DNA from: Gammaproteobacteria bacterium
Lineage (GTDB): Bacteria; Pseudomonadota; Gammaproteobacteria; Eutrophobiales; Eutrophobiaceae
Assembly: GCA_030835405.1 (NCBI GenBank)
Contig: JAURPG010000097.1
Coordinates: 8,479-72,478, forward strand
Length of the DNA stretch: 64,000 nucleotides
Direction of reading: 5' to 3'
Shown here: piece after piece, positions 5,318 to 52,653 of the stretch
Position numbering within the stretch: position 1 is the first letter of the stretch
Layout of the letters: every line of letters starts with the position of its first letter
Translations under genes and position numbers: made by a program
The notes under the pieces: generated by a model
Database searches by the model: none
Seen by the model: only the letters and a program-made list of their open reading frames with translations
What the model was told of the DNA's origin: nothing

Positions 5318-7048
5318 ATGCGATTATTAAATCAAATTATATTCATCATATTACTCATTCAGATTCCTTCATATGTGAATGCAGATCTTGTTATTGAGGT
5401 TTCAGGTGTCAATAACGGACTTAAGACGGTTCTACTGAATAATCTTTCTATTTACAGGCAGAGAGATAATGAAAAACTAACGGATACCAGTATAAGGGCC
5501 TTATACCTCAGGGCAGATGATGAAATCGTAAATTCATTACGGGCCAATGGATACTATCAACCAGAAATAGAGCAATCGCTGGAACAGGTTGAGGAAAACT
5601 GGACGGCGAGGTTTAACGTTAACCCGGGTGAACCGGTACTAGTTAAAAGTATCGAGCTAAATATCATCAGTGATGAACCCGATGCTGATTTCATATCTCG
5701 TCTGAAGTCATTATTCCCATTGAAGACTGGAGACCGTCTGATACATGGTCAATATGAATCTGGAAAAGTTGCTATTCAGGATGCAGCGTTACAAAGAGGG
5801 TATTTTGATGGGCAATGGGGAACGCATACACTACAAGTCTCAACTGATGACTATTCCGCCGATATTATTTTAACCTTTAATGCAGGCACCAGATACCGGT
5901 TTGGGGAAGTGATTATAGCTGATACTGTGATCAATAGTGATCTGGTCAATAACTTGCTCGCTGTTAAGACAGGTGAGTTATATGAGGCTGAAAAACTGGT
6001 TGAAACCCAGAATACACTTCAGAATACCAGATATTTTGAACAGATTGTTGTTCGTACCGGTGATGTTGATCACCGGGAAAAAACCATACCTGTATCCATT
6101 GAGATTCAGGAGCGCAATAAACATGCCTACCGCGTGGGAGTTGGATACGGCACTGATACAGGAGCCAGGCTGGTGGGTTCCTGGGACACCCAGTATCTGA
6201 ACATGAAAGGCCACAGGCAGGAGACGGATTTGCGTCTTTCGCTGGTCAGGAGTTCATTGTCCTCTGCCTACCTGATTCCATTTTTCAGAGAACAGGATGC
6301 GGAACTGGGTATTACCGCTTCCGTATCAAGAGAAGATACCGATACCTCTGTGAGTAATAAATTTGATTCCAGTGTGCAACATCTGAATCAACGATGGGGC
6401 TGGAATGAGACTATTAGCCTTACCTATCAATATGAAGACTATAGAGTAGCTGATTTAAGTGATGCCAGCCATTTGCTGATCCCATCGATCAACTACTGGC
6501 GTTCGGTGAGTGATAATCCACTTTATCCCCGACGAGGTTATCGTTTAAGCGCAGATTTAAAAGGCTCGGTAAAAGGACTGATATCCAATGTCCACTTTCT
6601 GCAACTACGCTTGAGAGGGAAGTATATCCATCCTGTGGGTAATGATGGGCGCCTGATCGGGCGCAGTGAGGTTGGTGCGTTACTGGCGAGTGAATTTTCA
6701 AACCTGCCTTCAAGCCTGAGGTTTTTTGCTGGTGGTGATGACAGCATCAGAGGTTTCGACCTTAATACGCTGGGACCGTTAAATGCATCCGAAGGAGTTA
6801 TTGGCGGTACTTACCTGGCTACAGGTAGCGTTGAGTATGAACACAGATTATTTGGCAAATGGAGTGCTGCTGTATTTTCAGATTTCGGTAATGCATTTGA
6901 TGACTTCTCTGAAAAGTTTGAATACAGTGTCGGCACAGGTTTGCGATGGCAGACCCCTGTAGGTCTATTCCGGCTTGATGTCGCCGTTGGACTATCCAGA
7001 GACGATAACCCCATCAGGCTTCATATCATCCTGGGGCCTGAATTATGA
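5318..7048 (+). CDS. tamA: translocation and assembly module outer-membrane subunit TamA (Omp85/BamA family)
   Basis: 576 aa with a signal peptide, POTRA-like N-terminal region and a C-terminal Omp85 beta-barrel ending in an aromatic residue. Its stop overlaps the tamB start (ATGA). Confidence 0.8.
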   Translation: MRLLNQIIFIILLIQIPSYVNADLVIEVSGVNNGLKTVLLNNLSIYRQRDNEKLTDTSIRALYLRADDEIVNSLRANGYYQPEIEQSLEQVEENWTARFNVNPGEPVLVKSIELNIISDEPDADFISRLKSLFPLKTGDRLIHGQYESGKVAIQDAALQRGYFDGQWGTHTLQVSTDDYSADIILTFNAGTRYRFGEVIIADTVINSDLVNNLLAVKTGELYEAEKLVETQNTLQNTRYFEQIVVRTGDVDHREKTIPVSIEIQERNKHAYRVGVGYGTDTGARLVGSWDTQYLNMKGHRQETDLRLSLVRSSLSSAYLIPFFREQDAELGITASVSREDTDTSVSNKFDSSVQHLNQRWGWNETISLTYQYEDYRVADLSDASHLLIPSINYWRSVSDNPLYPRRGYRLSADLKGSVKGLISNVHFLQLRLRGKYIHPVGNDGRLIGRSEVGALLASEFSNLPSSLRFFAGGDDSIRGFDLNTLGPLNASEGVIGGTYLATGSVEYEHRLFGKWSAAVFSDFGNAFDDFSEKFEYSVGTGLRWQTPVGLFRLDVAVGLSRDDNPIRLHIILGPEL

Positions 7049-10000
7049 AAAAAATCCTCACAGCCATCTCTGTGCTAGTGCTGGTGCTACTGGTATCCGG
7101 ATTTTGTATACTGAATAATCAAGCTGGACTGAACGTACTACTTGCACTGATAGACAAGGGGGAGTTATCTGTCTCGGCAGAGGTCCGCTCCGGTTCCCTG
7201 ATGTCTGGATTCGAACTGGAAAATGTAAAGCTTTCTATTGATGCAGGGGATGTCTCGATAAACCATTTCCGGCTTGAATGGGACCTGCTAGATTTTCTTT
7301 TTACCGAGAAGCGGATTCAATTGCTATTGCTGGAGGATGTTATCTACCTTGCAAACATTGAGGAACAACCTCCCGAGCAGCCACCCCTGGAATTAAATAT
7401 ACCGGACTTGTTGTTTGATAGTTTTATCATAACTAACCTACAGGTCCAAAATGCCGATGAAAGCGGATCATTCCAGCTCGAACATCTACAAGCCAGTTTT
7501 CAGGTTGTAAATAACGTGATTTCCCTTTCAGATTTTATGGCCAGAATGCAAAATCTGGAATTGAACTCAAATGGCTCTTTTCTGTTACAACTTCCTTATA
7601 CAATTAACCTGTCTACAGATGTAATATATACCACCGGTTCAGGAAGGCAAATTACTGGAAACGTATCCATTGGTGGCGAACTGAATCAAATCCAGACAAC
7701 AATAGACATCCCGCATGGTAATGCCACCATATCAGTAGCGGACATTTCCACGTCCCCGGTCTGGACAGCAAACTTATCGCTGTCAGAATTCAGGCCTGAC
7801 GAGATCGATATAACCTTGCCCGAAGTAGGTGTGAATCTTGATCTGAATATGCAGGGAACGGCCACAACGGCAACAGGTAACAGCATGATAAACCTGGACT
7901 ATTCTAGTCTAACTGTTGCCGAAGGTGGGGTGGCTGGAGACCAGGGATCAATTATAATCCCGGATGAGTTCCAATTAGGATTTGATACCCGATTGGATAC
8001 TGATAACCAGCTCATTACCATTAATGAAATTTCGATCTCCACAGGTGATATTCGCATTAACTCATCAGGAGTTTTCAATTTCCTGGAAAAGCAATTCAAT
8101 ATCGCTATCAACTGGTCTGATTGGCTAATCAATATTAGTGAAGACCTGCCACCTGTCGCTGCCAGTGGAAGAATGACCCTGGATGGAGAACTGGATTCCT
8201 ATAATATCAGTTCAAGTGTGTCTATAACCGGTTCAGGCCCAATACCTTCCACCTCATTGTCTATCAATGGTGAGGGCGACCTGGATGGATTACGAATTGA
8301 ACCATTAGACCTACAATTACTTGACGGCGCAATATCTGCAACAGTTGGTGTCAACTGGGCTGATAGCATCGAAGCCGGGATTACCTGGGAAGGAGAAGCC
8401 CTGAACCCGGCGGTAATCTGGATCGAATGGCCGGGACGTTTAAATACTTCTGGAAACCTGAGATTAACTCAAATGAATGAGACATGGTCCTGGGTAGCGG
8501 ATGGGATAGACATATCTGGGTTTTTGAAAGATGCCCCATTAACTGTGAACCTGGTTGGTGACTCCCAGATAGCAGCTGAAATCAATCTTTCGGCCAGAGC
8601 AGACTATGCCAACATGGACATGATATTTGATGGTACGATCAGTGATGAACTGGATATCAACTGGGAGATCAATACCCCGGATCTTTCCCGCGTCGATGAA
8701 TCTTTGGCTGGCGAAGTATCCAGCACCGGGAATGTAACGGGAACACTGGATTTCCCTGAAATTAATGCACAAATATCCGCAAATAACGTTGATTCACCCT
8801 GGGGGAGTTCCAGGCAGGTTGCCGTTTCCATGAATACAGGTGTCGATATAGCGAGTGATATTAATGCGGCTATATTCCTTGAGGGAATGACTATGGATGA
8901 AACGGAGCTGGAATCACTGCAGGCAGACCTGACCGGGACAAGAGCTGCTCATTCATTCAGTGTTGCTGCCAAATTACCTGACCTGGATTTGAATGTCAGT
9001 GGACTTGGTAATTATATTGATTCGAACTGGCGTGGTGAAATCCAGGTCATTGAACTGGCACATGAACGGTTTGAGACATGGACCCTGGCTGATACGACTG
9101 CGTTGGCAATTTCAAACAGCCGTTATGCATCAGGACCGTTATGCATGCGTCATCCCAGTGGATCGATATGTCTCGAAGGAATGTATGAACCAGAAACTGG
9201 CTACTGGTCTATTGATGCGAAATCAAGTCGCATACCTTTATCTTTGCTCCAGTCAGAATTACCTGGCGCACCGGAGATAGATGGTCGGGCGGATGTTTTT
9301 TTACAGCTGAACGGAAACAATTCCCGCCCCGAAACCGGAATAGTGCGACTGGATATTCCAGATGGCCAAATTTCTATGGCGCACTCTGATAATAGTCAGC
9401 ACATCATACCGCTTGAAGGGACCTTCCTGGAAGTGAAACTGGAGGCTGCCACATTAACAGGCGTAGCTACAGTTCCAGCGTTGAATGAAAATTTCAAACC
9501 AGTGCTGGTGAATGTTGAGATGACCGGGTATGAAGATTTGAGTGCATTGCCTTTAGACCTGCCAATCAAGGGAAAACTTGTGGCCGGTGGAGATGACCTG
9601 TCGTTGTTATCCCTTATCACGCCCGAACTTGAAAGTCTTCTCGGGAGTTTTGATATAGATATTAATATTGCCGGGACACTGCACGAACCACAATTTCAGG
9701 GTAAGGCGGAGATTACAAATGCAAGTTATCAATTTCTCGACCTTGGCATTGCTATCGATGATATCAACCTGGTGGGTACAAATATGCCTGATTTCGGGTA
9801 TGAAATTAATGGTCAGTTACGCTCCGGGGATGGGATCATTCAGGCGGAAGCAAGTGTCCAGCAAATTACAAGGGAAGGGATTGAGTTAACAGCCGAGTTG
9901 TCAGGTGAAAATTTTGAAATGGTAAACCTGCCGGAGCTATGGGCGATTGTAAATCCGACGATTCAATCCAGACTTAGTGTAGGTAATCAGTATTATCAGG

Positions 10001-14152: not shown

Positions 14153-14890
14153 ATGAATGAAAACGCACAGGATATCAGACAAAGCCCCGTGACGGTATTT
14201 CGGACCCTGGGATTGACCAAGACCTATGAGATGGGAGATGTAAAGGTCCATGCCTTGCGCAGAGTTGATTCTGAATTATATTCAGGTGAACTGGTAGTGT
14301 TATTGGGTGCTTCCGGGAGTGGTAAGTCTACCTATATGAACATCCTGGGAGGTCTGGATAGACCGACCACGGGTGAGGTGTATTATGAAGAACATGATCT
14401 CACCAATGCTACAGAATCTGAACTAACAGAGTATCGAAGAGAGCATGTGGGATTTGTGTTCCAGTTTTACAACCTGATTCCCAGTCTAACAGCCCTGGAA
14501 AATGTCTCAATCGTCACTGAGATTTCAGAAGATCCCCTGGATCCCAAAGATGCCCTGGGGTTAGTCAATCTGACACAACGCATGGATCACTTTCCTTCAG
14601 AATTGTCAGGTGGTGAACAACAGCGGGTAGCAATTGCCCGGGCCATCGCCAAGAATCCTACTGTTTTATTGTGTGATGAACCCACCGGTGCACTGGACTC
14701 TGAAACCGGAAGCCTGGTGTTGTCCGCCATAGAACAAATCAATAGAGAACTAAATACAACGACAGCGGTTATCACCCACAATATTGCCATTAGTAGAATG
14801 GCAGATCGAATCATTCATCTGGCCGATGGGGTAATAACAGATGTAGAGGTGAATACGAATAAAGTTCACGTAAAAGACATTAAATGGTGA
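14153..14890 (+). CDS. ABC transporter ATP-binding protein (MacB/LolD/YbbA-type)
   Basis: Walker A 'GASGSGKST', ABC signature '[14 protein letters not shown]' and Walker B '[11 protein letters not shown]'. It is separated from the FtsX-type permease gene by 4 nt. Confidence 0.9.
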
Positions 14891-14894
14891 GCAT

Positions 14895-17258
14895 TTGAGG
14901 GCTATTAACCGAAAACTTTATCGTGATTTACAGGATACCTGGGGTCAGGCCCTGGCGATCATTCTTGTTATTGCTGCGGGGACATCCACATTTGTTATGT
15001 CTATCTCTACCTATGACACCCTCGTACAAACCCGCGATGCATATTACCGTGATTATCGATTTGAAGACATATTTGCGTCCTTAAACCGCGCACCGGAAAG
15101 TCTGCGGGAGGTTATCGAGTCTATTGAAGGTATTAACAAGGTTGAGACCCGTGTCGTTGCCTCAGCCAAGTTGACCGTGGCAGATTTTCCGGAGCCTGTA
15201 TTGGGGGAGGTTGTATCCATTCCTGATTTTGGTGAGCCGACGGTAAACCGTTTATATCTTTTACAGGGAAGGTATCCAGACCCGGTCAGGGATGATGAAG
15301 TCATATTAAACCAGGTGTTTGCTAATGCCCATAATCTTGTTCCCGGTGACAGCTTTGAAATGATTATCAAGGGTCGACTTGAAACTATGCGGGTAGTAGG
15401 AATTGCCCTGTCACCAGAATATATCTATCAGGTTGCGCCCGGGGCGATCATGCCGGATTTTAAACGTTTTGGTGTTATATGGATGTCCCGAGATGCAGTA
15501 GGTAAGGCATTTGATATGGATAATGCTTTCAATAATGTGGTAATGACCTTACAACCCGGCGTAAACCCCAAAGACATAATTGAAAGGCTGGATTTACTTC
15601 TGGAACCCTATGGTGGTCGTGATGCACAGGAGCGGGAATGGCAGGTTTCTCATCGTATATTTAAAAGTGACATTGACCAGTTAGAACAGATGGCCGGCAT
15701 GTTCTCCAGCATTTTCCTGGGGGTTGCCGCATTTCTTCTCAATATTGTCGTGTCCCGGTTAATCAATACGCAACGGGAGATTATCGCGGCACTGAAGGCG
15801 TTCGGGTATAGCAATATCGATATCGGGTTACATTATCTTGGTTATGTAGGAGTTATTATTACCATCGGCTTATTATTGGGGATTGCCGGTGGTATTTGGC
15901 TGGGCATAGCCTTAAGTAATCTATATATGGAATTTTACAGGTTACCCTATATGGAATTTGAGTTTCGCCTGAGTATTATTACTATTGCCGTAATGATCAC
16001 CTTTCTGGCAGCTTCAGTGGGGACCTTGTTTGCAGTCAATCGCGCCGTCAAGTTACCACCTGCCCAGGCAATGAAACCAGAACCACCTGCAAAATTCAGA
16101 AAGACCCTGATTGAAAAGCTCAAGGTTTTTAGCCTCTTGCCTCAGATGGCCAGAATGGTAATACGCCACCTTTCAAGAAAACCGGTTAAGGCCAGTTTGT
16201 CAATTGCAGGCATTGCACTGGCCTGTTCCATTCTTGTGGTCGGTTCCTTCTTCCGTGATGCCCTGGAGTTTCTCATAGACATTGAATTTGGTCTGGCACA
16301 ACGGGAAGACATGACCATAGTTTTTACTGAGCCCAGTTCAAGGAATGCTTATTATAATATATTGAATCTTGAGGGAGTCGATTATGGAGAAGTATATCGC
16401 TCCGTACCGGTTCGTCTGGTCAATGGTCATAGGACATATCTCACGGGTATCAATGGTTATCAAGAACAAAGAGACCTGCATCGACCTCTTGATACCAACC
16501 ATGAACCAATTGATATTCCAACACAGGGTATATTACTGACAGATTACCTGGGGGAATTACTGGATGTAGAAGTTGGCGATATAGTAAATGTGGAAGTTCT
16601 TGAGGGCAGGCGACCGGTTGATCAGCTGAGGGTAGCCGGGCTGGTTAACCAGTATTTTGGTATCGGCGCCTATATGGATATCAATAGTTTGAATCGTATG
16701 ATGCGGGAAGATGATGTAATCTCCGGAGTTTATCTGAAGATAGATCCAGCTTATGAACAACAGATCTATCATCAGCTGAAAGATATGCCCAGGGTAGCTA
16801 ATTTTGAAACAAACCGTCATATCGTTCAGGCATTTAATGATACCTCCGCAGAAATGGTCTATATCTTTGTTGGGTTTATTTTTGGTCTTGCAGTAATTAT
16901 TACTTTTGGTGTGGTATATAACACTGCACGTATTGCGCTGTCAGAACGTGGCCGGGATATGGCAAGCCTCAGGGTACTCGGATTTACCCGTGGAGAGATA
17001 TCTTATATCCTGCTGGGGGAATTGGTAGTATTAACCTTGATTGCTATACCTGTAGGGATGATCATTGGCAGGTTACTTTCCTGGTATATGATCCAGGAGA
17101 TCCCTAAAGAGATCTTCCGAGTGCCTTTAATTATCGAAAATTCAACCTACGCGATTTCAGCAACTGTTGTCATTATTGCATCAATATTGTCCGGTCTGGT
17201 GGTGAGAAACCGGCTCGATCATCTGGATTTGATTGGTGTATTAAAGACAAGGGAGTAA
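14895..17258 (+). CDS. ABC transporter permease with two FtsX/MacB-like domains (YbbP-like)
   Basis: 787 aa. Each half has one TM helix, a large periplasmic domain and three further TM helices, the duplicated FtsX topology. Confidence 0.85.
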   Translation: MRAINRKLYRDLQDTWGQALAIILVIAAGTSTFVMSISTYDTLVQTRDAYYRDYRFEDIFASLNRAPESLREVIESIEGINKVETRVVASAKLTVADFPEPVLGEVVSIPDFGEPTVNRLYLLQGRYPDPVRDDEVILNQVFANAHNLVPGDSFEMIIKGRLETMRVVGIALSPEYIYQVAPGAIMPDFKRFGVIWMSRDAVGKAFDMDNAFNNVVMTLQPGVNPKDIIERLDLLLEPYGGRDAQEREWQVSHRIFKSDIDQLEQMAGMFSSIFLGVAAFLLNIVVSRLINTQREIIAALKAFGYSNIDIGLHYLGYVGVIITIGLLLGIAGGIWLGIALSNLYMEFYRLPYMEFEFRLSIITIAVMITFLAASVGTLFAVNRAVKLPPAQAMKPEPPAKFRKTLIEKLKVFSLLPQMARMVIRHLSRKPVKASLSIAGIALACSILVVGSFFRDALEFLIDIEFGLAQREDMTIVFTEPSSRNAYYNILNLEGVDYGEVYRSVPVRLVNGHRTYLTGINGYQEQRDLHRPLDTNHEPIDIPTQGILLTDYLGELLDVEVGDIVNVEVLEGRRPVDQLRVAGLVNQYFGIGAYMDINSLNRMMREDDVISGVYLKIDPAYEQQIYHQLKDMPRVANFETNRHIVQAFNDTSAEMVYIFVGFIFGLAVIITFGVVYNTARIALSERGRDMASLRVLGFTRGEISYILLGELVVLTLIAIPVGMIIGRLLSWYMIQEIPKEIFRVPLIIENSTYAISATVVIIASILSGLVVRNRLDHLDLIGVLKTRE

Positions 17259-17260
17259 TC

Positions 17261-18457
17261 ATGTACTTAATTAAAAAGCATCCTGTTTTGGTTTTTTCCA
17301 GCCTGGTGATAATTATCATCATTGGAATTGGTTTCATACCACGGCCGGTCCTGGTAGATACGGTAGTTGTCAGCCGTGATTCATTGGTTGTTACCATTGA
17401 AGAGGAAGGTAAGACCCGAATTATTGATCATTATGTTCTGTCAGCACCGGTGGATGGCTATGCCCGTCGAATTGATTTGGATGTTGGCGACCCGGTAAAT
17501 ATGGGACAGGAGATCGTCAGTCTTGAACCATTGCGTTCCAATGTGCTGGATCCCAGAAGTCGGGCCGAGGCCGAGGCCAAGGTTTCAGCTTCAGTAGCGG
17601 CATTAAATGCTGCAGAGCGAGATGTCCGTGCTGCTGAGGCGGATGCACAATATGCTACAGAGGAAGCCGAAAGGCTAAAACGACTATTTGATACCGGTGC
17701 TATTCCATTGGATCGCCTGCAGCAAAGTGAGGCAGCAGCAAGACGGACAACGGCAAGACTGGAATCGGCCAGGTACTCGGTACAGATCGCAGAATATGAA
17801 AAAATTTCTGCAGAAGCTGTACTAAAATATTCTACCGGTGAATCTGCAGAGGAAAATCTCGAGACAGTTTATATCAAGGCACCGGTGAGTGGGCAGGTAT
17901 TGAAAATCCATCATGAGAGTGAAGGAGTTGTCTATAAAGGTGAAACTCTAATTGATATTGGTGATCCACTGTCTCTGGAGGTAGTTGTAGAAGTCCTGTC
18001 ACGCGACGCGGTGAGGATTAGTCCCGGGACCAAAGTCATGTTATCACGTTGGGGTGGTGAGGAAATTCTGGACGGGGTTGTACGAACAGTAGAACCTGTG
18101 GGATTTACCAAAATTTCGGCATTAGGGGTTGAGGAACAGCGGGTATTTGTCATTGTTGATATCACTACACCGAAAGACAGATGGATGCGGTTGGGAGATA
18201 GTTATCGAATTGAGACTGCATTTGTACTTTGGGAAGAAGAAAATGTTTTGCAGGTACCATCAAGTGCACTGTTTAGGATCAATGATGATTGGGCCTTATA
18301 TGCCATGGTGGACGAAGTTGCTGAACTGAGGATGGTAGAAACCGGGAAAAAGAGTGGCTTAATGACCCAGGTATTATCGGGGATTGATGAGGGAGACGTT
18401 ATCATTAACCATCCAGGGGATAATCTGGATGAGGGTAGTCGGGTCCGCTCCAGGTAA
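17261..18457 (+). CDS. HlyD-family periplasmic adaptor (membrane fusion protein)
   Basis: 398 aa with an N-terminal TM anchor, a coiled-coil region rich in A/E/R, and a beta-barrel/lipoyl region 'VYIKAPVSGQVLKI'. It is separated from the permease gene by 2 nt. Confidence 0.8.
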   Translation: MYLIKKHPVLVFSSLVIIIIIGIGFIPRPVLVDTVVVSRDSLVVTIEEEGKTRIIDHYVLSAPVDGYARRIDLDVGDPVNMGQEIVSLEPLRSNVLDPRSRAEAEAKVSASVAALNAAERDVRAAEADAQYATEEAERLKRLFDTGAIPLDRLQQSEAAARRTTARLESARYSVQIAEYEKISAEAVLKYSTGESAEENLETVYIKAPVSGQVLKIHHESEGVVYKGETLIDIGDPLSLEVVVEVLSRDAVRISPGTKVMLSRWGGEEILDGVVRTVEPVGFTKISALGVEEQRVFVIVDITTPKDRWMRLGDSYRIETAFVLWEEENVLQVPSSALFRINDDWALYAMVDEVAELRMVETGKKSGLMTQVLSGIDEGDVIINHPGDNLDEGSRVRSR

Positions 18458-18508
18458 AAGGCTGTATAAATCACTGTTCGGGATAGACACTATTTAGCGT
18501 ATGATGCA

Positions 18509-19288
18509 GTGAGTATGGGAAAGATATCTCAATTCGTAAGATCTCATCTACGTTTAATCACCGTATTTTTGTTCCTGTCCTTTTTAGCCATTACAGCCTA
18601 CTCTCAGGGTTACCGGGGCAGTAGTTATGGCAGATATATTATTCCCCAGCATGCACCACCAAAAACGGAACTGGTGGTTGCCCGTTGGCGTTTTGGTACA
18701 AATGGCTGGTTTGGACATCGTGGCTGGTCCCATAATTATCCGGAGTCAGACCAGAATCTGAATGAATTTATTCACCGTACTACAGGTATAAATGTCGATG
18801 TCATGTCTTACCAGATTGTAGATCTCGCCAGTGATGAGATTTTTGAATACCCATTTGCTTATGTATCAGAGCCGGGAGAAATGGAATTGACCCTGCAAGA
18901 AGTCAGAAATTTGCATGAATATGTCGCCAGGGGAGGTTTCATACTAATGGATGATTTTGATGGTCCTGCGCAGATAGGTAATATGAAAAATCATGTACGC
19001 AGGGCATTCTCTGACAGAAATTTTATTGCACTGGATACTTCACACCCGCTGTTCAAGGTACATTTCAACCTTGAAGATTTAAACGGCATGGCACCATATG
19101 TGCCCGGGGGAGACATCAGTTATCATGGTATCTTAAATAACGAAGGCAACGTTGGCATTGCAGCTGGGTTTAATAATGACCTGGCCAATTTCTGGGAGTG
19201 GTATTATCAGGGATGGATGCCATTAAAACCCTCAACTGATGCATTTCGGTTGGGGGTAAATGCTGTAGTGTATTCCATGACCCACTAG
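18509..19288 (+). CDS. DUF4159-like exported protein
   Basis: 259 aa with a signal peptide. 'VRNLHEYVARGGFILMDDFDG' and 'DTSHPLF' resemble the conserved DUF4159 blocks as I recall them. Confidence 0.5.
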   Translation: MSMGKISQFVRSHLRLITVFLFLSFLAITAYSQGYRGSSYGRYIIPQHAPPKTELVVARWRFGTNGWFGHRGWSHNYPESDQNLNEFIHRTTGINVDVMSYQIVDLASDEIFEYPFAYVSEPGEMELTLQEVRNLHEYVARGGFILMDDFDGPAQIGNMKNHVRRAFSDRNFIALDTSHPLFKVHFNLEDLNGMAPYVPGGDISYHGILNNEGNVGIAAGFNNDLANFWEWYYQGWMPLKPSTDAFRLGVNAVVYSMTH

Positions 19289-19604
19289 AACCAATATCAA
19301 AATTGATATTTCAGCTTTCTGCTTCATTATCGCCTTTTGTCCTGGCACATAACCCAGTACACCTCAATTAATATGACTTAATTATAAATATTGTAAGGAG
19401 TTCCAGGTGTAACTTTAAGTGTAATTTAATATAATACCGCTCTGATATGGATGTAAACTACTGACCGGATGTATACTATAATTTCCTACCCGCGTTAGAT
19501 AATGCATTATTAATAAGAAATCCATTTGCATCTGGTTGGTATGATTTAAAAATGTGTTCGCAAAACATTAAATAACACCACCAGAACCAGCCCGGGAGAA
19601 TCAG

Positions 19605-21347
19605 GTGTTTAAAAGAGGATATGGACAAGTGAAAAAATTACTGACACTGGCAGGATTGCTATTGTTATCGATTCAGGTGAATGCCATTGTCATGGTTGTT
19701 GAAACGCCATTGGGTGACTTTCAAATTGATTTACTTGAAGATGAAGCCCCTAACACTGTTAATAATTTTATCAGCTATATCAATGATGGCAGTTTTGAAA
19801 ATTCTTTTGTCCATCGAAGCTCAACCGGGTTTGTTATTCAGGCGGGGTCATATACCTTGGTTGACGAGACTCTGGAAGAGATAGAGAAAAAGGACCCTGT
19901 TGTGAATGAGTTCGGTCGTTCCAATATCAGGGGCACGGTTTCAATGGCCAAGGTAGGTGGTGATCCCAATAGTGCCACCAGTTCCTGGTTTATCAATATG
20001 GCAGATAATTCAGAAAATCTGGATAATCAGAATGGTGGTTTTACGGTATTCGGTGTCGTCCTCGGTGATGGGATGGACATTGTCGATGAAATCCATGCCT
20101 TATCTCTATTTGATGCCTCAGAGACTTCAGGAGCCGATTTTACTGAGCTCCCCTTGATAGATTATTCAGGGACCGGTGTGATCACCGCAGAGCACCTGGT
20201 CTTTACCCAGATAAGTCTTCCCGATGATTTGAATGAAATTACCGATCTTGCCATTACCAAATCGGTAAATATCACTGCACCTGCCCCGAATAATTCCGTC
20301 GAGTTTACTGTGACGGTATCAAATGATGGGACTGATGACGCAAATAGTATTGAGATTACTGATCCATTACCGGAAGGTATGGAGGTTCCCACGGGTATGG
20401 CGCCATTCACCAGTCTTGGTAGCTATGATACTGATACCGGTGTCTGGTCTATTGACACCTTATCGGCAGGTTCAAATGCCACCTTAAACCTGCCGGCGAT
20501 TCCCCAGCAATTTGCCGACCCAGAATGTTTCGTAAACACAGCAGCGCTTTCTGACTTTGCCGGAGTGGATACAAATTTCGATAATAATAGTGCGAACTCT
20601 ACAGTATATGTAGGTGGTATCTCTACATGTTCAAACCTGAGACTTAGTGTTTCCACAGATACATTCTTTGAGGCACGATGTTCAACAAGCTTCTCAGATG
20701 CTTTTGATTTTTTTGTGGAGGTAACAAATGATGGTCCGGATACGGCAGAAAACGTGGTGGTTACCATATCGGGTAGCCTGGATAGTACAGCCCAGGACGA
20801 TATTGTCATTGATTTTGGGGAAATATTAGCCGATGCATCTAAGAGCCAGTTAAGAAGTTGGACGCTGGCGTGTAACAGGCCAGATAGTGTCGCAACTTAT
20901 TCAGTTGTTACGACAAGTGATAGTAATGTATCAACAGGTAGTGTTCTCTCTGTTACGGGTGAAGATGATGTGCCGGACAATCCACCGACAGATGATACAA
21001 GTGATAACCCTACACCTGATAACAATAACAATGGTGGCGGTGGTGGGTTATGTTTTATTGCCACGGCAGCATATGGTTCTTATATGCACCCTCATGTGAA
21101 AGAATTAAGAGACTTTCGTGACGATGTATTACTGCATACAGAAATAGGCAGGCGTTTTGTTGCCTTGTATTACCAGTATTCGCCACCTGTTGCAGATATA
21201 ATCGCTGATAATGTAGTGCTGAAAAGTATTACCCGGATATTGTTGACACCTGTGGTCTATGCTGTCATTTACCCGCTTGCTGCGTCATTTATTATACTGT
21301 TGTTAATGGGCGCACTGGTATTTAGGCATACACGCAAAGCCAGGTAA
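19605..21347 (+). CDS. secreted mosaic protein: cyclophilin-type peptidyl-prolyl isomerase domain + two DUF11 repeat domains + acidic Pro/Asn linker + poly-Gly + conserved C-terminal 'CFIATAAYGS' module ending in a hydrophobic helix and basic tail
   Basis: GTG start with a GGGAGA ribosome-binding site and a signal peptide '...LLLLSIQVNA'. Residues ~30-170 align block by block with PpiB ('APNTVNNFISY', 'VHRSSTGFVIQAG', 'NIRGTVSMAK', 'SATSSWFINMADN', 'VFGVVLGDGMDIVDEI'). DUF11-like repeats follow ('TVTVSNDGTDDANSIEITDPLPEGMEV', 'FVEVTNDGPDTAENVVVT'). The C-terminus reads 'NNNNGGGGGLCFIATAAYGSYMHPHVKELRDFRD...TPVVYAVIYPLAASFIILLLMGALVFRHTRKAR'. Confidence 0.8.
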   Translation: MFKRGYGQVKKLLTLAGLLLLSIQVNAIVMVVETPLGDFQIDLLEDEAPNTVNNFISYINDGSFENSFVHRSSTGFVIQAGSYTLVDETLEEIEKKDPVVNEFGRSNIRGTVSMAKVGGDPNSATSSWFINMADNSENLDNQNGGFTVFGVVLGDGMDIVDEIHALSLFDASETSGADFTELPLIDYSGTGVITAEHLVFTQISLPDDLNEITDLAITKSVNITAPAPNNSVEFTVTVSNDGTDDANSIEITDPLPEGMEVPTGMAPFTSLGSYDTDTGVWSIDTLSAGSNATLNLPAIPQQFADPECFVNTAALSDFAGVDTNFDNNSANSTVYVGGISTCSNLRLSVSTDTFFEARCSTSFSDAFDFFVEVTNDGPDTAENVVVTISGSLDSTAQDDIVIDFGEILADASKSQLRSWTLACNRPDSVATYSVVTTSDSNVSTGSVLSVTGEDDVPDNPPTDDTSDNPTPDNNNNGGGGGLCFIATAAYGSYMHPHVKELRDFRDDVLLHTEIGRRFVALYYQYSPPVADIIADNVVLKSITRILLTPVVYAVIYPLAASFIILLLMGALVFRHTRKAR

Positions 21348-24520: not shown

Positions 24521-25009
24521 TTAGGATAAAGTATATTCTCGATCCTCAGTGATGAGCCATATATTGAACATATTTATTTCGGCAATATATCCTTCGATAT
24601 AATTATCAATATCAATAATTCTGATATAGTTTCCACGCCTGAAAGTTGGATGTAAAAGGATAATAAAAAAAGCTGTGACGTTACTAAGAATTGACCAGTT
24701 TGCAAATAATGCGACACCAGTTAACGTCAAAATTCCGGTCGAAAGTAATAACAGGTTCCTGAAATCAAAACCCCAGATTAGTAATAATATCGGGATCGCA
24801 AATAATAACAGGATGCCGTTAGCGTAATGGCTGGCAGTATTCAGTAATTCATCCTTGAATTTACTCGTTTCGATGGATTCCTTTATCTTGGGCCTGGTTG
24901 ATTTGCTTATGAGATAAATACATATAAGTACAAGTAATGTAAGAAACACGTTTAAGGAATAAGTATTGTAAAAGATAGCCAGGCTATCCAGTATTTCTCC
25001 AAAGCTCAC
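24521..25009 (-). pseudogene. C-terminally truncated MscS-like channel (mini-MscS remnant)
   Basis: 162 aa with TM helices, then 'LLLSTGILTLTGVALFANWSILSNVTAFFIILLHPTFRRGNYIRI', which matches the MscS TM3 pore-helix region. The ORF stops about 35 aa into the beta-domain. A downstream frame (around 24440-24500, minus strand) reads 'KQYFSVGKITDFSSQNED', which is weakly like the continuation 'IPNGKIIAGNIINFSREP'. Confidence 0.45.
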
Positions 25010-51534: not shown

Positions 51535-52653
51535 ATGTCAACTGTCAGCATGCGTGAAATGCTGGAAGCGGGTGTGCATTTTGGCCACCAAACACGCTTC
51601 TGGAACCCCAAAATGGGGCCTTATTTATACGGTCAACGTAATCGTATTCACATCATCAATCTGGAAAAAACCCTACCTCTTATTAACGATGCAGTCAATT
51701 TCGCCGGAAAGACCGCATCAAAAAAAGGCAAAATCTTATTTGTTGGTACTAAACGTGCTGCACAGAAGATTGTACATGAGGAGGCAGCTCGATGTGGGAT
51801 GCCCTATATCAATCGACGCTGGTTAGGCGGTTTATTAACAAATTTCAAAACAGTTAAGCAATCGATTAACCGTCTTAAAGTGTTGGAAGCCATGGAATTA
51901 GATGGCAGTTTTGAGAAAATCAGTAAAAAGGAAGGACTGTTGCTGCAACGTGAAAAAGAAAAGTTGCATAACAACCTTGCCGGAATTAAAGATATGCCCG
52001 GCATACCTGATGTGATGTTTGTGATCGATGTAGGATATGAAGATATCGCTGTGAGTGAAGCGGTAAAACTTGGAATACCGGTGATCGGCGTCGTCGACAG
52101 TAATAATGATCCAAAAGGTGTTGATTATGTTATTCCGGGGAATGATGACGCTATCAGGTCTATACAACTATATTGCAAGTCAATTGCTGATGCAGTTTTA
52201 GAAGGAAAAGAATCCATTTCTCACCTCGGTGATTCTGGTGATGCTGACGACTTTGTTGAACTTGACGAAGAAGGCGCACCGGTGATGAAAGATGATTCAA
52301 AAAAACCAAAAGCAACTGTAAAGAAAAAACCTGTCAAGAAAGTCTCAGCCCCTGTTGAAAAGACTGAGTCTGATAAAGTTGAAGAGACTCCTGCAGATCA
52401 GACAGAAAGCTCTACTGAAGACGAAAAAGCATCTGCCGGTGATACTAACAGTGATGCAGAGGTAAAGGCTGAAACCAAGGCTGACGATCCAACTGACGAT
52501 TCTTCAGAAGAAGAAGCCGAAAAGAAGGTAACCAAGAAAAAGGCTGCAAAAAAGAAGACTGCCAAGAAAACCACAACAAAAAAAGCAACTACAAAAAAAG
52601 CAACTACAAAAAAGACAGCAGCCAAAAAGAAAACCACTAAAGCAAGTGATTAA
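51535..52653 (+). CDS. rpsB: 30S ribosomal protein S2 with ~130-aa acidic-then-basic low-complexity C-terminal extension
   Basis: The core (about residues 1-235) is canonical S2 ('[14 protein letters not shown]'). The extension '[14 protein letters not shown]...[15 protein letters not shown]...[38 protein letters not shown]' contains a tandem DNA repeat ACAAAAAAAGCAACT x2. Confidence 0.95.

What the first reader, a model, noticed from the sequence alone, without database searches (positions are those of the whole stretch)
19605..21347. Secreted cyclophilin fused to DUF11 repeats and an anchor-like C-terminal domain
Bacterial cyclophilins are almost always small stand-alone PPIases. Here a bona fide PpiB-like domain, matching E. 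coli PpiB block by block, is followed by two DUF11 surface-repeat domains. Next come an Asp/Pro/Asn-rich spacer ending in NNNNGGGGG, and then a roughly 100-aa C-terminal module ending in a hydrophobic helix plus basic tail (RHTRKAR). The architecture suggests a cell-surface-anchored or secreted foldase, or possibly an adhesin. The gene is preceded by about 300 bp of AT-rich non-coding DNA and uses a GTG start, which fits a horizontally acquired accessory gene.
Basis: partly seen in the sequence, partly recalled or inferred. Interest (0 to 1): 0.75.

Follow-up and report, generated by a model that had tools for sequence, protein, structure and literature searches.

The report
Membrane-tethered cyclophilin on an Ig-like stalk
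This gene encodes an exported protein-folding enzyme (a cyclophilin) mounted on two Ig-like domains and a common but unstudied C-terminal membrane anchor (the "CFI-box"); it is real and conserved, but it is assembled from known modules, so it is moderately rather than highly surprising.

Summary
ORF 19605-21347 (+, GTG, 580 aa) encodes, in order:
- a signal peptide;
- a cyclophilin domain (Pfam 5.6e-30), with the catalytic H54, R55, F60, Q63, F113 and L122 equivalents invariant in 16 orthologs;
- two DUF11/CLIPPER Ig-like domains (the first strong, the second divergent);
- an Asp/Pro/Asn/Gly linker;
- a C-terminal module that is a full-length match to the curated NCBIfam domain CFI_box_CTERM (NF041770, 101.6 bits against a cutoff of 40), followed by a hydrophobic helix and a basic tail.

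It is not an assembly chimera: 16 collinear orthologs (47-100% identity) come from independent assemblies of uncultured Gammaproteobacteria, the closest being Ca. Eutrophobius. It shows no sign of recent horizontal transfer: composition is typical and synteny is fully conserved at 72% identity.

The DUF11x2 + linker + CFI-box block is a reusable cassette. It also occurs alone, on a 1,598-aa subtilase, and behind another head. The CFI-box matches about 30,700 protein clusters, almost always at the extreme C-terminus of Ig-repeat-rich proteins. It has no literature and no relative among solved folds.

Best reading: an inner-membrane-anchored, periplasm-facing prolyl isomerase on a short stalk, analogous to the membrane-tethered foldases of Gram-positive bacteria. 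Surface exposure is not shown.

The parts
19289..19604 (+). Upstream intergenic spacer (316 bp, GC 0.342), with a Shine-Dalgarno-like GGGAGA at 19594-19599
   Evidence: Promoter-like hits are not enriched over shuffles (8 found against 6.5 +/- 2.9), and there is no Rfam match. The AT-richness is within the range of the window's other spacers.
19605..19685 (+). Sec-type signal peptide, aa 1-27: basic n-region K3/R4/K10/K11, h-region LLTLAGLLLLSI, and a predicted VNA|I cleavage site
   Evidence: This is one of only two hydrophobic segments in the protein. A27 at position -1 is invariant, and position -3 is V/L/T/S/A in the 16 orthologs. The NCBIfam PpiA model aligns from residue 1, which includes PpiA's own signal peptide. 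No dedicated signal-peptide predictor was available.
19686..20219 (+). Cyclophilin-type PPIase domain, aa 28-205 (Pfam core 30-168 plus the final beta-strand region FTELPLIDY...HLVFT)
   Evidence: PF00160 scores 105.1 bits, E 5.6e-30. The best solved relative is E. coli PpiA (8xck, 1j2a), E 1.7e-22. H70, R71, F76, Q79, F129 and L139 (human CypA H54, R55, F60, Q63, F113, L122) are invariant in 16 of 16 orthologs. Q111 is replaced by S127, H126 by F146, and W121 by N138.
20238..20612 (+). DUF11/CLIPPER Ig-like domain 1, aa 212-336, with a candidate isopeptide triad K219/D253/N311 and invariant C308 and C342
   Evidence: PF01345 scores 90.2 bits over model positions 1-114 of 114. A profile of this domain finds 9IFR at E 0.046, with K219 aligned to the isopeptide Lys and D253 to the Asp (PMC12617251). 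K219 is conserved in only 8 of 16 orthologs.
20613..20969 (+). Divergent DUF11-like Ig domain 2, aa 337-455, with C359 and C423 and no candidate isopeptide Lys
   Evidence: PF01345 scores 23.6 bits alone (cutoff 24.6), E 6.6e-5, and is counted as the second stretch. AF2 predicts seven beta-strands at pLDDT about 74-88. The only Lys in this region is K413.
20970..21050 (+). Low-complexity linker, aa 456-482: VPDNPPTDDTSDNPTPDNNNNGGGGGL
   Evidence: AF2 pLDDT is below 50 for residues 463-498. A Gly-run before the Cys occurs in 61% of 223 CFI-box proteins.
21051..21257 (+). CFI-box-CTERM domain, aa 483-551, starting at the invariant C483 (CFIATAAYGS...LRDFRD...YYxYSPPxA)
21237..21323 (+). C-terminal hydrophobic stretch, aa 545-573 (LLTPVVYAVIYPLAASFIILLLMGALVF): the predicted transmembrane anchor, overlapping the end of the CFI-box model
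   Evidence: Kyte-Doolittle 19-aa window values reach 2.47. It is helical in the AF2 model. A TM-like segment follows the box in 84% of 223 family members.
21324..21347 (+). Basic tail RHTRKAR (aa 574-580) and the stop codon; predicted to be cytoplasmic under the positive-inside rule
   Evidence: At least 2 K/R occur in the last 15 residues in 91% of 223 CFI-box proteins.

Best explanation
The gene encodes an exported prolyl cis-trans isomerase that stays tethered to the cytoplasmic membrane by its C-terminus and works in the periplasm.

Proposed steps:
(1) The N-terminal signal peptide sends the chain through Sec and is cut after VNA27.
(2) The C-terminal hydrophobic helix (aa ~545-573) acts as a stop-transfer anchor, leaving RHTRKAR in the cytoplasm.
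(3) The helical CFI-box (aa 483-551) sits at the outer face of the membrane.
(4) A flexible 27-residue linker and two Ig-like DUF11/CLIPPER domains hold the cyclophilin head some nanometres above the membrane. The Ig domains are stabilised by disulfides, and the first copy in this particular protein may also carry a Lys219-Asn311 isopeptide bond.
(5) The head catalyses proline isomerisation in newly translocated envelope or secreted proteins.

The DUF11x2 + linker + CFI-box block is a general stalk-and-anchor cassette that this lineage also uses alone and with other heads, such as a subtilase. The cyclophilin is one payload of that cassette.

Shown: the domain identities, conservation of the catalytic residues, collinearity across orthologs, reuse of the cassette, and the regular layout of the CFI-box family.
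Inferred: the cleavage site, the membrane topology, the compartment, the enzyme activity, the covalent cross-links and the substrates.
For: Domain calls: PF00160 at 5.6e-30, PF01345 twice, NF041770 at 101.6 bits.

Catalytic positions H54, R55, F60, Q63, F113 and L122 are invariant in 16 of 16 orthologs. According to PMC4898713, R55, F60 and Q63 are the residues most important for catalysis.

The closest solved relative is the periplasmic E. coli PpiA.

Only two hydrophobic segments exist, at the N-terminus and the extreme C-terminus, and the tail is basic.

Sixteen collinear orthologs were found.

The same cassette occurs behind a signal peptive alone (L009-L012, L038), on a Peptidase_S8 protein (L007), and behind another head (P0076).

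The CFI-box matches 30,743 cluster representatives, nearly always at the extreme C-terminus. Among 223 members, 84% have a TM-like segment and 91% a basic tail. Carriers are rich in Ig-like and extracytoplasmic repeats.

Membrane-anchored extracytoplasmic cyclophilins with PPIase and chaperone activity are documented: L. lactis PpiA (PMC3307742) and the streptococcal SlrA-type lipoproteins (PMC11853100).
Against: No activity, localisation or expression data exist.

Three of the nine active-site positions differ from human CypA (Q111S, H126F, W121N). In AquaCyp300, substitutions at Q111 and H126 accompany low activity and narrow specificity.

The signal peptide and topology were judged by hand, not by a dedicated predictor.

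The cyclophilin part of the full-length AF2 model is poor (pLDDT 24-53, from an alignment of only 16 sequences).

The nearly invariant Cys after a Gly-run at the start of the CFI-box is not explained by a simple passive-anchor model. It could mark processing, lipidation or cross-linking that changes the final location.
Confidence: 0.55

Rival explanations
1. The CFI-box is a processed sorting signal rather than a permanent anchor. An unidentified enzyme, or self-catalysed chemistry at the Gly-Cys junction, cleaves or modifies the protein at or near C483. The cyclophilin and stalk are then released or transferred to a lipid or to the outer envelope, ending up on the cell surface or secreted.
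For: The Cys is invariant or nearly so across the whole family. It is preceded by Gly in 61% of members and by a Gly-run in 61%. The overall layout of conserved motif, TM helix and basic tail at the extreme C-terminus recalls known C-terminal sorting signals, by established knowledge of LPXTG, PEP-CTERM and GlyGly-CTERM. The window protein has five Cys. Four of them lie in the two Ig domains and probably pair (inferred), which would leave C483 unpaired.
Against: The conserved motif lies about 60 residues upstream of the TM helix, not directly next to it as in the known sortase, exosortase and rhombosortase signals. No known sorting-signal model hit the protein. No neighbour family recurs in more than 2 of 9 cassette loci, and none recurs across four phylogenetically diverse CFI loci. 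The 69-residue box folds confidently as a helical domain, which suggests a structural role.
Confidence: 0.22
2. The cyclophilin fold serves as a binding module (a cyclophilin-like domain) rather than as an enzyme. The protein would then be a short adhesin or a receptor for proline-containing ligands.
For: DUF11/CLIPPER domains typically form the stalks of fibrillar adhesins (PMC12617251). Three active-site positions are substituted, including the H126 equivalent.
Against: The residues most important for catalysis are invariant over 47-100% sequence divergence, which is what selection on enzyme activity predicts. The F146 position is Tyr in the active E. coli enzymes. The stalk has only two Ig-like domains, unlike long fibrillar adhesins. 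In a diderm the predicted topology does not reach the cell surface.
Confidence: 0.1
3. A recently acquired horizontal accessory gene, or an assembly or annotation artefact such as a chimeric ORF.
For: The gene has an AT-rich 316-bp upstream spacer and a GTG start. More distant orthologs sit in different neighbourhoods.
Against: Composition and codon usage are typical of the window. Gene order is identical around the 72%-identical ortholog. A downstream block is shared at 52% identity. Sixteen collinear full-length orthologs come from independent assemblies. The other spacers in the window are equally AT-rich.
Confidence: 0.03

Closest known systems
Membrane-tethered extracytoplasmic cyclophilins of Gram-positive bacteria (Lactococcus lactis PpiA, PMC3307742; streptococcal SlrA-type lipoprotein cyclophilins, PMC11853100)
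   Same: A cyclophilin-type PPIase is exported and held at the outer face of the cytoplasmic membrane. It is presumed to act on newly translocated proteins. PPIase and chaperone activity have been shown for a soluble form of L. lactis PpiA.
   Different: Those proteins are tethered at the N-terminus, by a membrane anchor or a lipid, and have no stalk. This one is tethered at the C-terminus by a CFI-box plus TM helix, carries two Ig-like domains and a linker, and is from a diderm, where the same topology faces the periplasm rather than the outside.
E. coli periplasmic cyclophilin PpiA (PDB 8xck, 1j2a, 1clh) and cytoplasmic PpiB
   Same: PpiA is the closest solved sequence relative (E 1.7e-22, about 35-37% identity). 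Both have a signal peptide and the same catalytic Arg/Phe/Gln core.
   Different: The window protein scores far below the NCBIfam equivalog cutoffs (93 against 308, and 83 against 297). The E. coli proteins are soluble single-domain proteins of 164-190 aa. The H126-equivalent residue is Tyr in E. coli and Phe here, and the Q111 equivalent is Ser here.
AquaCyps, extended cyclophilins of marine Alphaproteobacteria found as homologues of the periplasmic E. coli cyclophilin (PMC4898713)
   Same: These are bacterial cyclophilins enlarged by extra modules, with partly substituted active sites. They are an example of lineage-specific elaboration of an envelope cyclophilin.
   Different: The AquaCyp extensions form a compact NIC domain packed onto the cyclophilin. 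There are no Ig-like repeats and no membrane anchor.
DUF11/CLIPPER stalk domains of fibrillar adhesins (PF01345; PDB 9IFR; PMC12617251)
   Same: They share the CnaA-like Ig fold family. Copy 1 here has Lys, Asp and Asn at the positions of the 9IFR isopeptide triad. Disulfides are common in proteobacterial members.
   Different: There are only two copies here rather than long tandem arrays. The triad Lys is lost in half of the orthologs, and copy 2 lacks it altogether. The head is an enzyme, not an adhesive domain.
CFI-box-CTERM domain proteins (NCBIfam NF041770)
   Same: The match is full-length and above the cutoff. It lies at the extreme C-terminus, has a Gly-run before the invariant Cys, and is followed by a TM helix and a basic tail. 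This is the family's standard layout.
   Different: Pro_isomerase is not among the 25 most frequent Pfam families in 78 sampled carriers, so the cyclophilin head is at least uncommon. The family has no published function, no solved structure and no fold relative.

Membership tests
Cyclophilin-type PPIase (Pfam PF00160) | Profile match above the gathering cutoff | tested here: met
   105.1 bits against a cutoff of 21.7, E 5.6e-30, aa 30-168 covering model positions 2-142 of 159.
Cyclophilin-type PPIase (Pfam PF00160) | Catalytic core Arg55, Phe60 and Gln63 (human CypA numbering) | tested here: met
   R71, F76 and Q79 are invariant in 16 of 16 orthologs. Their importance is stated in PMC4898713.
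Cyclophilin-type PPIase (Pfam PF00160) | Auxiliary active-site residues His54, Gln111, Phe113, Trp121, Leu122 and His126 | tested here: inconclusive
   H70, F129 and L139 are conserved. Q111 is replaced by S127 (Q in 3 of 16), H126 by F146 (Y in 1 of 16; Tyr in E. coli), and W121 by N138 or a gap.
Cyclophilin-type PPIase (Pfam PF00160) | Measured prolyl isomerase activity | not testable with these tools
   This requires a protease-coupled peptide assay on purified protein.
PpiA / PpiB orthologs (NCBIfam PRK10903 / PRK10791 equivalogs) | Score above the equivalog cutoff | tested here: not met
   93.2 against 308, and 83.1 against 297. It belongs to a distinct subfamily.
DUF11 / CLIPPER (Pfam PF01345) | Profile match above the cutoff, copy 1 | tested here: met
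   90.2 bits over model positions 1-114 of 114.
DUF11 / CLIPPER (Pfam PF01345) | Profile match above the cutoff, copy 2 | tested here: inconclusive
   23.6 bits alone against a cutoff of 24.6, E 6.6e-5. It is counted as a second stretch in the whole-protein scans. AF2 predicts a seven-strand beta-sandwich at pLDDT 74-88.
DUF11 / CLIPPER (Pfam PF01345) | Intramolecular isopeptide triad Lys-Asp-Asn, as in 9IFR | tested here: inconclusive
   Copy 1 has K219, D253 and N311. K219 and D253 align to the 9IFR Lys and Asp, but only at E 0.046. K219 is conserved in 8 of 16 orthologs, D/E253 in 16 of 16 and N311 in 15 of 16. Copy 2 has no candidate Lys. Bond formation needs mass spectrometry.
CFI-box-CTERM (NCBIfam NF041770) | Profile match above the curated cutoff, full length | tested here: met
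   101.6 bits against a cutoff of 40, aa 483-551 covering model positions 1-69 of 69.
CFI-box-CTERM (NCBIfam NF041770) | Extreme C-terminal position, invariant Cys in the CFIATAAYG motif, then a hydrophobic helix and a basic tail | tested here: met
   C483 is 98 residues from the end, compared with a family median of 101 from the Cys to the C-terminus. The TM-like segment is aa 545-573 and the tail is RHTRKAR.
Known C-terminal sorting signals (LPXTG/sortase, PEP-CTERM/exosortase, GlyGly-CTERM/rhombosortase, archaeosortase signals) | Signature motif immediately before the TM helix, matching a curated model | tested here: not met
   No such NCBIfam or Pfam model hit the protein at E <= 1. The conserved CFI motif lies about 60 residues upstream of the TM helix.
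Known C-terminal sorting signals (LPXTG/sortase, PEP-CTERM/exosortase, GlyGly-CTERM/rhombosortase, archaeosortase signals) | A dedicated processing enzyme encoded nearby or co-distributed | tested here: inconclusive
   No neighbour family recurs in more than 2 of 9 cassette loci, and none recurs in four diverse loci. Genome-wide co-occurrence could not be computed.
Bacterial lipoprotein (lipobox) | Cys at +1 directly after a signal-peptide h-region with an L-[AS]-[GA]-C box | tested here: not met
   The N-terminal signal peptide has no Cys; the first Cys in the protein is C308. C483 follows a hydrophilic Gly-run 455 residues after the signal peptide.
Fibrillar adhesin | A long tandem array of stalk domains carrying an adhesive tip domain | tested here: not met
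   There are only two Ig-like domains, and the tip is an enzyme fold with conserved catalytic residues.

The most novel reading that the evidence does not exclude
The CFI-box-CTERM may be more than a passive anchor. It may be a widespread, uncharacterised protein-sorting or covalent-attachment signal, present in about 30,000 protein clusters across Bacteria and Archaea. Its nearly invariant Cys, usually preceded by a Gly-run, would be the site of chemistry such as lipidation, thioester or Gly|Cys autoprocessing, or intermolecular cross-linking. Under this reading the cyclophilin and stalk would be delivered to a location other than the inner-membrane face. This protein would also be a convenient reporter for working out the pathway, because its enzymatic head is easy to assay.
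Probability: 0.2. Interest if true: 0.75.

Novelty: new variant of a known kind. Interest (0 to 1): 0.38.

Why it matters
Membrane-tethered envelope foldases are well known, but with other anchors. Examples are PrsA and SlrA as lipoproteins, L. lactis PpiA with its membrane anchor, and PpiD with an N-terminal TM anchor (PrsA and PpiD from established knowledge). A cyclophilin held off the inner membrane of a Gram-negative bacterium by an Ig-like stalk and a C-terminal anchor would be a new way of positioning folding catalysis within the periplasm.

The analysis also shows that the stalk and anchor form a portable cassette that carries different enzymes. It draws attention to the CFI-box, a very common C-terminal domain with an invariant Cys. 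No paper on it was found in the searchable library, it has no solved structure, and it has no detectable fold relative.

The practical value is modest unless the CFI-box turns out to be a true sorting or processing signal.

Tried and rejected
- The PDB sequence search with DUF11 copy 1 alone returned only spurious matches to designed 'Pizza' propellers. A profile was needed to reach 9IFR, and even then only at E 0.046.
- The full-length AF2 model built on 16 orthologs was poor (pLDDT 56.8, cyclophilin part 24-53). It gave only generic tandem-Ig matches such as transglutaminase barrels, SdrD and RbmA.
- The afdb50 fold library was not available.
- Literature searches for CFI-box, NF041770 and the motif strings found no papers.
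- The promoter and terminator scan was not above shuffles, and Rfam found nothing in or around the gene.
- I asked whether the abundant ~345-aa cyclophilins are 'cyclophilin + CFI-box' proteins. They are not: they carry a different, unannotated C-terminal domain.
- Clustering the neighbours of 9 cassette loci, and inspecting 4 diverse CFI loci, found no recurrent partner.
- The assembly-chimera and HGT ideas were rejected on ortholog collinearity, synteny and composition.
- The lipoprotein idea was rejected because C483 does not follow a signal-peptide h-region.
Full report
**1. What is there**

It starts with GTG and is 580 aa long. A GGGAGA motif lies 5 nt upstream of the GTG. Orthologs that begin with ATG start at the same alignment column, so the start codon is credible.

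Pfam finds Pro_isomerase at aa 30-168 (E 5.6e-30) and DUF11 in two stretches (E 2.6e-28).

NCBIfam finds four things:
- Two TIGR01451 (DUF11-type) repeats.
- A match to periplasmic PpiA at 93.2 bits.
- A match to PpiB at 83.1 bits. Both are far below their equivalog cutoffs of 308 and 297.
- A full-length match of aa 483-551 to NF041770, CFI_box_CTERM, at 101.6 bits against a cutoff of 40.

The last point matters most. The 'anchor-like' module is a curated, named domain rather than an anonymous tail.

Scanned separately, DUF11 copy 1 (aa 212-336) is a complete match at 90.2 bits. Copy 2 (aa ~337-455) is divergent, at 23.6 bits against a cutoff of 24.6.

The spacer is aa 456-482, VPDNPPTDDTSDNPTPDNNNNGGGGGL. 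The protein has only two hydrophobic segments, at aa ~12-30 and aa ~545-573, and it ends in RHTRKAR.

**2. It is a real, conserved gene**

A search of 5.8 billion proteins found 16 full-length, collinear homologs of 573-591 aa at 47-100% identity. They come from NCBI, JGI, ENA and Logan assemblies. Where named, they are called 'peptidylprolyl isomerase' or 'uncharacterized repeat protein (TIGR01451 family)', from uncultured Gammaproteobacteria. All modules align without breaks, which rules out an assembly chimera.

The closest species-representative genome is the MAG Candidatus Eutrophobius brisbanensis (Gammaproteobacteria, Ca. Eutrophobiales), at 81% identity.

**3. There is no sign of recent horizontal transfer**

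- Gene GC is 0.436, against a window mean of 0.447 +/- 0.029.
- GC3 is 0.383, against 0.430 +/- 0.048.
- The codon-usage distance is 4.27, against 5.68 +/- 1.56.
- The 316-bp upstream spacer has GC 0.342, within the range of the window's other spacers (0.21-0.45).

Around the 72%-identical ortholog the gene order is identical over more than 20 kb: TamB, Na+/H+ exchanger, hydrolase, ABC/FtsX/HlyD, DUF4159, this gene, SSF symporter, SnoaL, HAD. At 52% identity a downstream block is still shared (RF-1 domain protein, DUF938, acetyltransferase, SDR, DUF3750). A 49%-identical ortholog sits after tilS instead. No neighbour is conserved throughout, so the gene appears to act on its own.

**4. The cyclophilin head**

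The best solved relatives are E. coli PpiA entries (8xck, 1j2a, 1clh; E about 2e-22).

Conserved in all 16 orthologs:
- CypA H54, R55, F60, Q63, F113 and L122 correspond to H70, R71, F76, Q79, F129 and L139.

Substituted:
- Q111 is replaced by S127 (Q in 3 of 16).
- H126 is replaced by F146 (Y in 1 of 16; Tyr in the E. coli enzymes).
- W121 is replaced by N138 or a gap.

The AquaCyp study states that R55, F60 and Q63 are the residues most important for catalysis and that H54, Q111 and H126 contribute. In AquaCyp300, changes at those contributing positions accompany low activity and a preference for hydrophobic substrates (PMC4898713).

I therefore infer an active PPIase, possibly with reduced rate or narrowed specificity.

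The same search returned hundreds of signal-peptide-bearing cyclophilins with other C-terminal modules or with FG-GAP, PKD or cadherin-like domains, and some with tandem cyclophilin domains.

**5. The stalk**

PF01345 (DUF11) was recently renamed CLIPPER. It is a CnaA-like Ig fold that typically forms adhesin stalks. In PDB 9IFR it carries a Lys715-Asn806 isopeptide bond catalysed by a nearby Asp. Some members lack the bond, and disulfides are frequent in Pseudomonadota (PMC12617251).

A profile of copy 1 reaches 9IFR only at E 0.046. In that alignment K219 pairs with the isopeptide Lys and D253 with the Asp. N311 lies at the expected spacing. Across the orthologs, however, K219 is Lys in only 8 of 16 and Asn or Ser in the rest, whereas C308, C342 and C423 are invariant and C359 is present in 14 of 16.

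So the family appears to rely on disulfides, and the isopeptide is an optional extra that this particular protein may have. Copy 2 has no candidate Lys.

AF2 on the 16-sequence alignment predicts both copies as beta-sandwiches (pLDDT about 75-88). It is poor elsewhere (mean 56.8), and Foldseek returns only generic tandem-Ig proteins.

**6. A reusable cassette**

A scan of species-representative genomes found loci that match only residues ~191-580. Reading them shows the same DUF11x2 + Gly-rich linker + CFI-box block in three other settings:
- Directly behind a signal peptide, with no head, in proteins of 390-420 aa (L009-L012, L038; Steroidobacteraceae, Halieaceae and uncultured Gammaproteobacteria).
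- At the end of a 1,598-aa Peptidase_S8/BACON_2 protein (L007).
- Behind an unrelated head (P0076).

All were confirmed with the curated models. The cyclophilin is therefore one payload on a shared stalk-and-anchor cassette.

**7. The CFI-box**

A profile built from 85 sequences, searched exhaustively against 1.84 billion cluster representatives, finds 30,743 proteins at E <= 1e-3 and 24,289 at E <= 1e-10. In almost every listed hit the box lies at the extreme C-terminus, on proteins of 130 to more than 2,000 aa.

Among 78 carriers, the commonest partner domains are InlB B-repeat-like, Big_5, ASH/HYDIN-type Ig, DUF1573, fn3, DUF11, PKD and beta-propellers. Pro_isomerase is not among the top 25. 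Members come from Geobacteraceae, Clostridia, Zixibacteria and Methanosarcinales, among others.

Over 223 members:
- The Cys lies a median 101 residues from the C-terminus (5th-95th percentile 82-121).
- 84% have a TM-like segment after the box.
- 91% have at least 2 K/R in the last 15 residues.
- The residue before the Cys is Gly in 61%.
- A Gly-run (at least 4 Gly in the preceding 12 residues) is present in 61%.

The window protein is thus a textbook member.

No neighbour family recurs across 9 cassette loci or across 4 diverse CFI loci. In one Clostridia contig, a 7,253-aa PKD/CARDB protein is followed 52 bp later by a 136-aa CFI-box ORF. This fits the box being the anchor of large surface proteins.

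**8. Mechanism**

*Shown:* the domain identities, conservation of the catalytic residues, reuse of the cassette, and the regular box-TM-basic-tail layout.

*Inferred:*
- Export through Sec, with cleavage after VNA27 (A27 is invariant).
- Stop-transfer anchoring by the C-terminal helix, with the basic tail in the cytoplasm under the positive-inside rule.
- Hence, in a Gammaproteobacterium, an inner-membrane protein whose cyclophilin faces the periplasm on a stalk of two Ig-like domains plus a flexible linker. From general knowledge of Ig-domain dimensions this is roughly 10 nm.
- Action on newly translocated proteins.

The closest functional analogues are the membrane-tethered cyclophilins of Gram-positive bacteria. 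L. lactis PpiA is surface-exposed and active as a PPIase and chaperone in soluble form (PMC3307742). The streptococcal SlrA-type lipoproteins are the other example (PMC11853100). Those proteins differ in anchor type and lack a stalk.

'Cell-surface' and 'adhesin' are not supported for a diderm. No autotransporter, T9SS or other outer-membrane signal was detected.

The main open point is the invariant Cys after the Gly-run, which a purely passive anchor does not explain. A processing or attachment role is the most novel reading that the evidence does not exclude (I put it at about 0.2).

**9. Verdict**

Every module belongs to a known family, and the architecture is already present in public databases with automatic annotation. 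No member has been studied, however, and the anchor domain is functionally unknown.

I classify it as a new variant of a known kind, the membrane-tethered extracytoplasmic PPIases.

Noticed in passing
P0022, P0027, P0065, P0090, P0102 (hits); for example Elongatibacter sediminis P0065: Hundreds of ~343-370-aa secreted cyclophilins, 45-58% identical to this head, share an unannotated C-terminal domain of about 150 aa. Its motifs include NSGLNDAWFNP...GQGFF...FLAWFTYD...GEPGHRWLTAxG, and it ends near a conserved Cys. Pfam finds only Pro_isomerase in P0022. This looks like a large uncharacterised cyclophilin-fusion family.
   Followed up: partly
L007:6335-11131 (+): A 1,598-aa Peptidase_S8 (subtilase) protein with BACON_2/Ig-like domains and Asp-rich repeats ends in the same DUF11x2 + GGGG + CFI-box cassette as the window protein.
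   Followed up: partly
L009:2331-3866 and L009:9671-11206 (+); also L019:10448-12416: Two paralogous headless cassette genes (signal peptide + DUF11x2 + CFI-box) lie about 6 kb apart in one uncultured gammaproteobacterial contig. In L019 the CFI-box hits fall in two overlapping frames, which suggests a frameshift or a duplication.
   Followed up: no
L086:1-6949 and 7001-7411 (+): A 7,253-aa PKD/CARDB giant protein in a Clostridia MAG is followed 52 bp later by a separate 136-aa ORF that consists of a CFI-box plus TM helix. This is either a split gene (a sequencing or real frameshift or stop) or a separately encoded anchor.
   Followed up: no
window 14153-19288 (+): An ABC ATPase, an FtsX-type permease (787 aa) and a HlyD-family adaptor (a MacAB-like tripartite efflux set) are followed by a DUF4159 protein with an N-terminal hydrophobic segment. 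The four-gene arrangement is conserved in L001, immediately upstream of the cyclophilin gene, but not in more distant orthologs.
   Followed up: partly
window 24521-25009 (-): This 162-aa ORF has the lowest GC in the window (0.348) and the second-largest codon-usage distance (9.32). It has no Pfam hit and sits in an AT-rich stretch. In the syntenic locus L001, the corresponding position holds a 192-aa MS_channel_2nd gene.
   Followed up: partly
window 51535-52653 (+): The ribosomal protein S2 ORF is 372 aa, but the Pfam S2 domain covers only aa 9-224. This implies a C-terminal extension of about 150 aa, or an over-long ORF call. The adjacent rpsB-tsf...uppS block has markedly low GC3 (0.32-0.36), which fits codon bias in highly expressed genes.
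   Followed up: no
P0017 and P0018: These are multi-cyclophilin proteins. P0017 (536 aa, Pseudomonadales MAG) has two tandem cyclophilin domains. P0018 (921 aa) has four cyclophilin-like domains alternating with PKD-like repeats.
   Followed up: no
L003:14547-21722 (+): About 3 kb downstream of the 49%-identical ortholog lies an integrase followed by primase/DnaB-like and small unknown genes, a probable integrated mobile element. Nothing comparable flanks the gene in the window.
   Followed up: no
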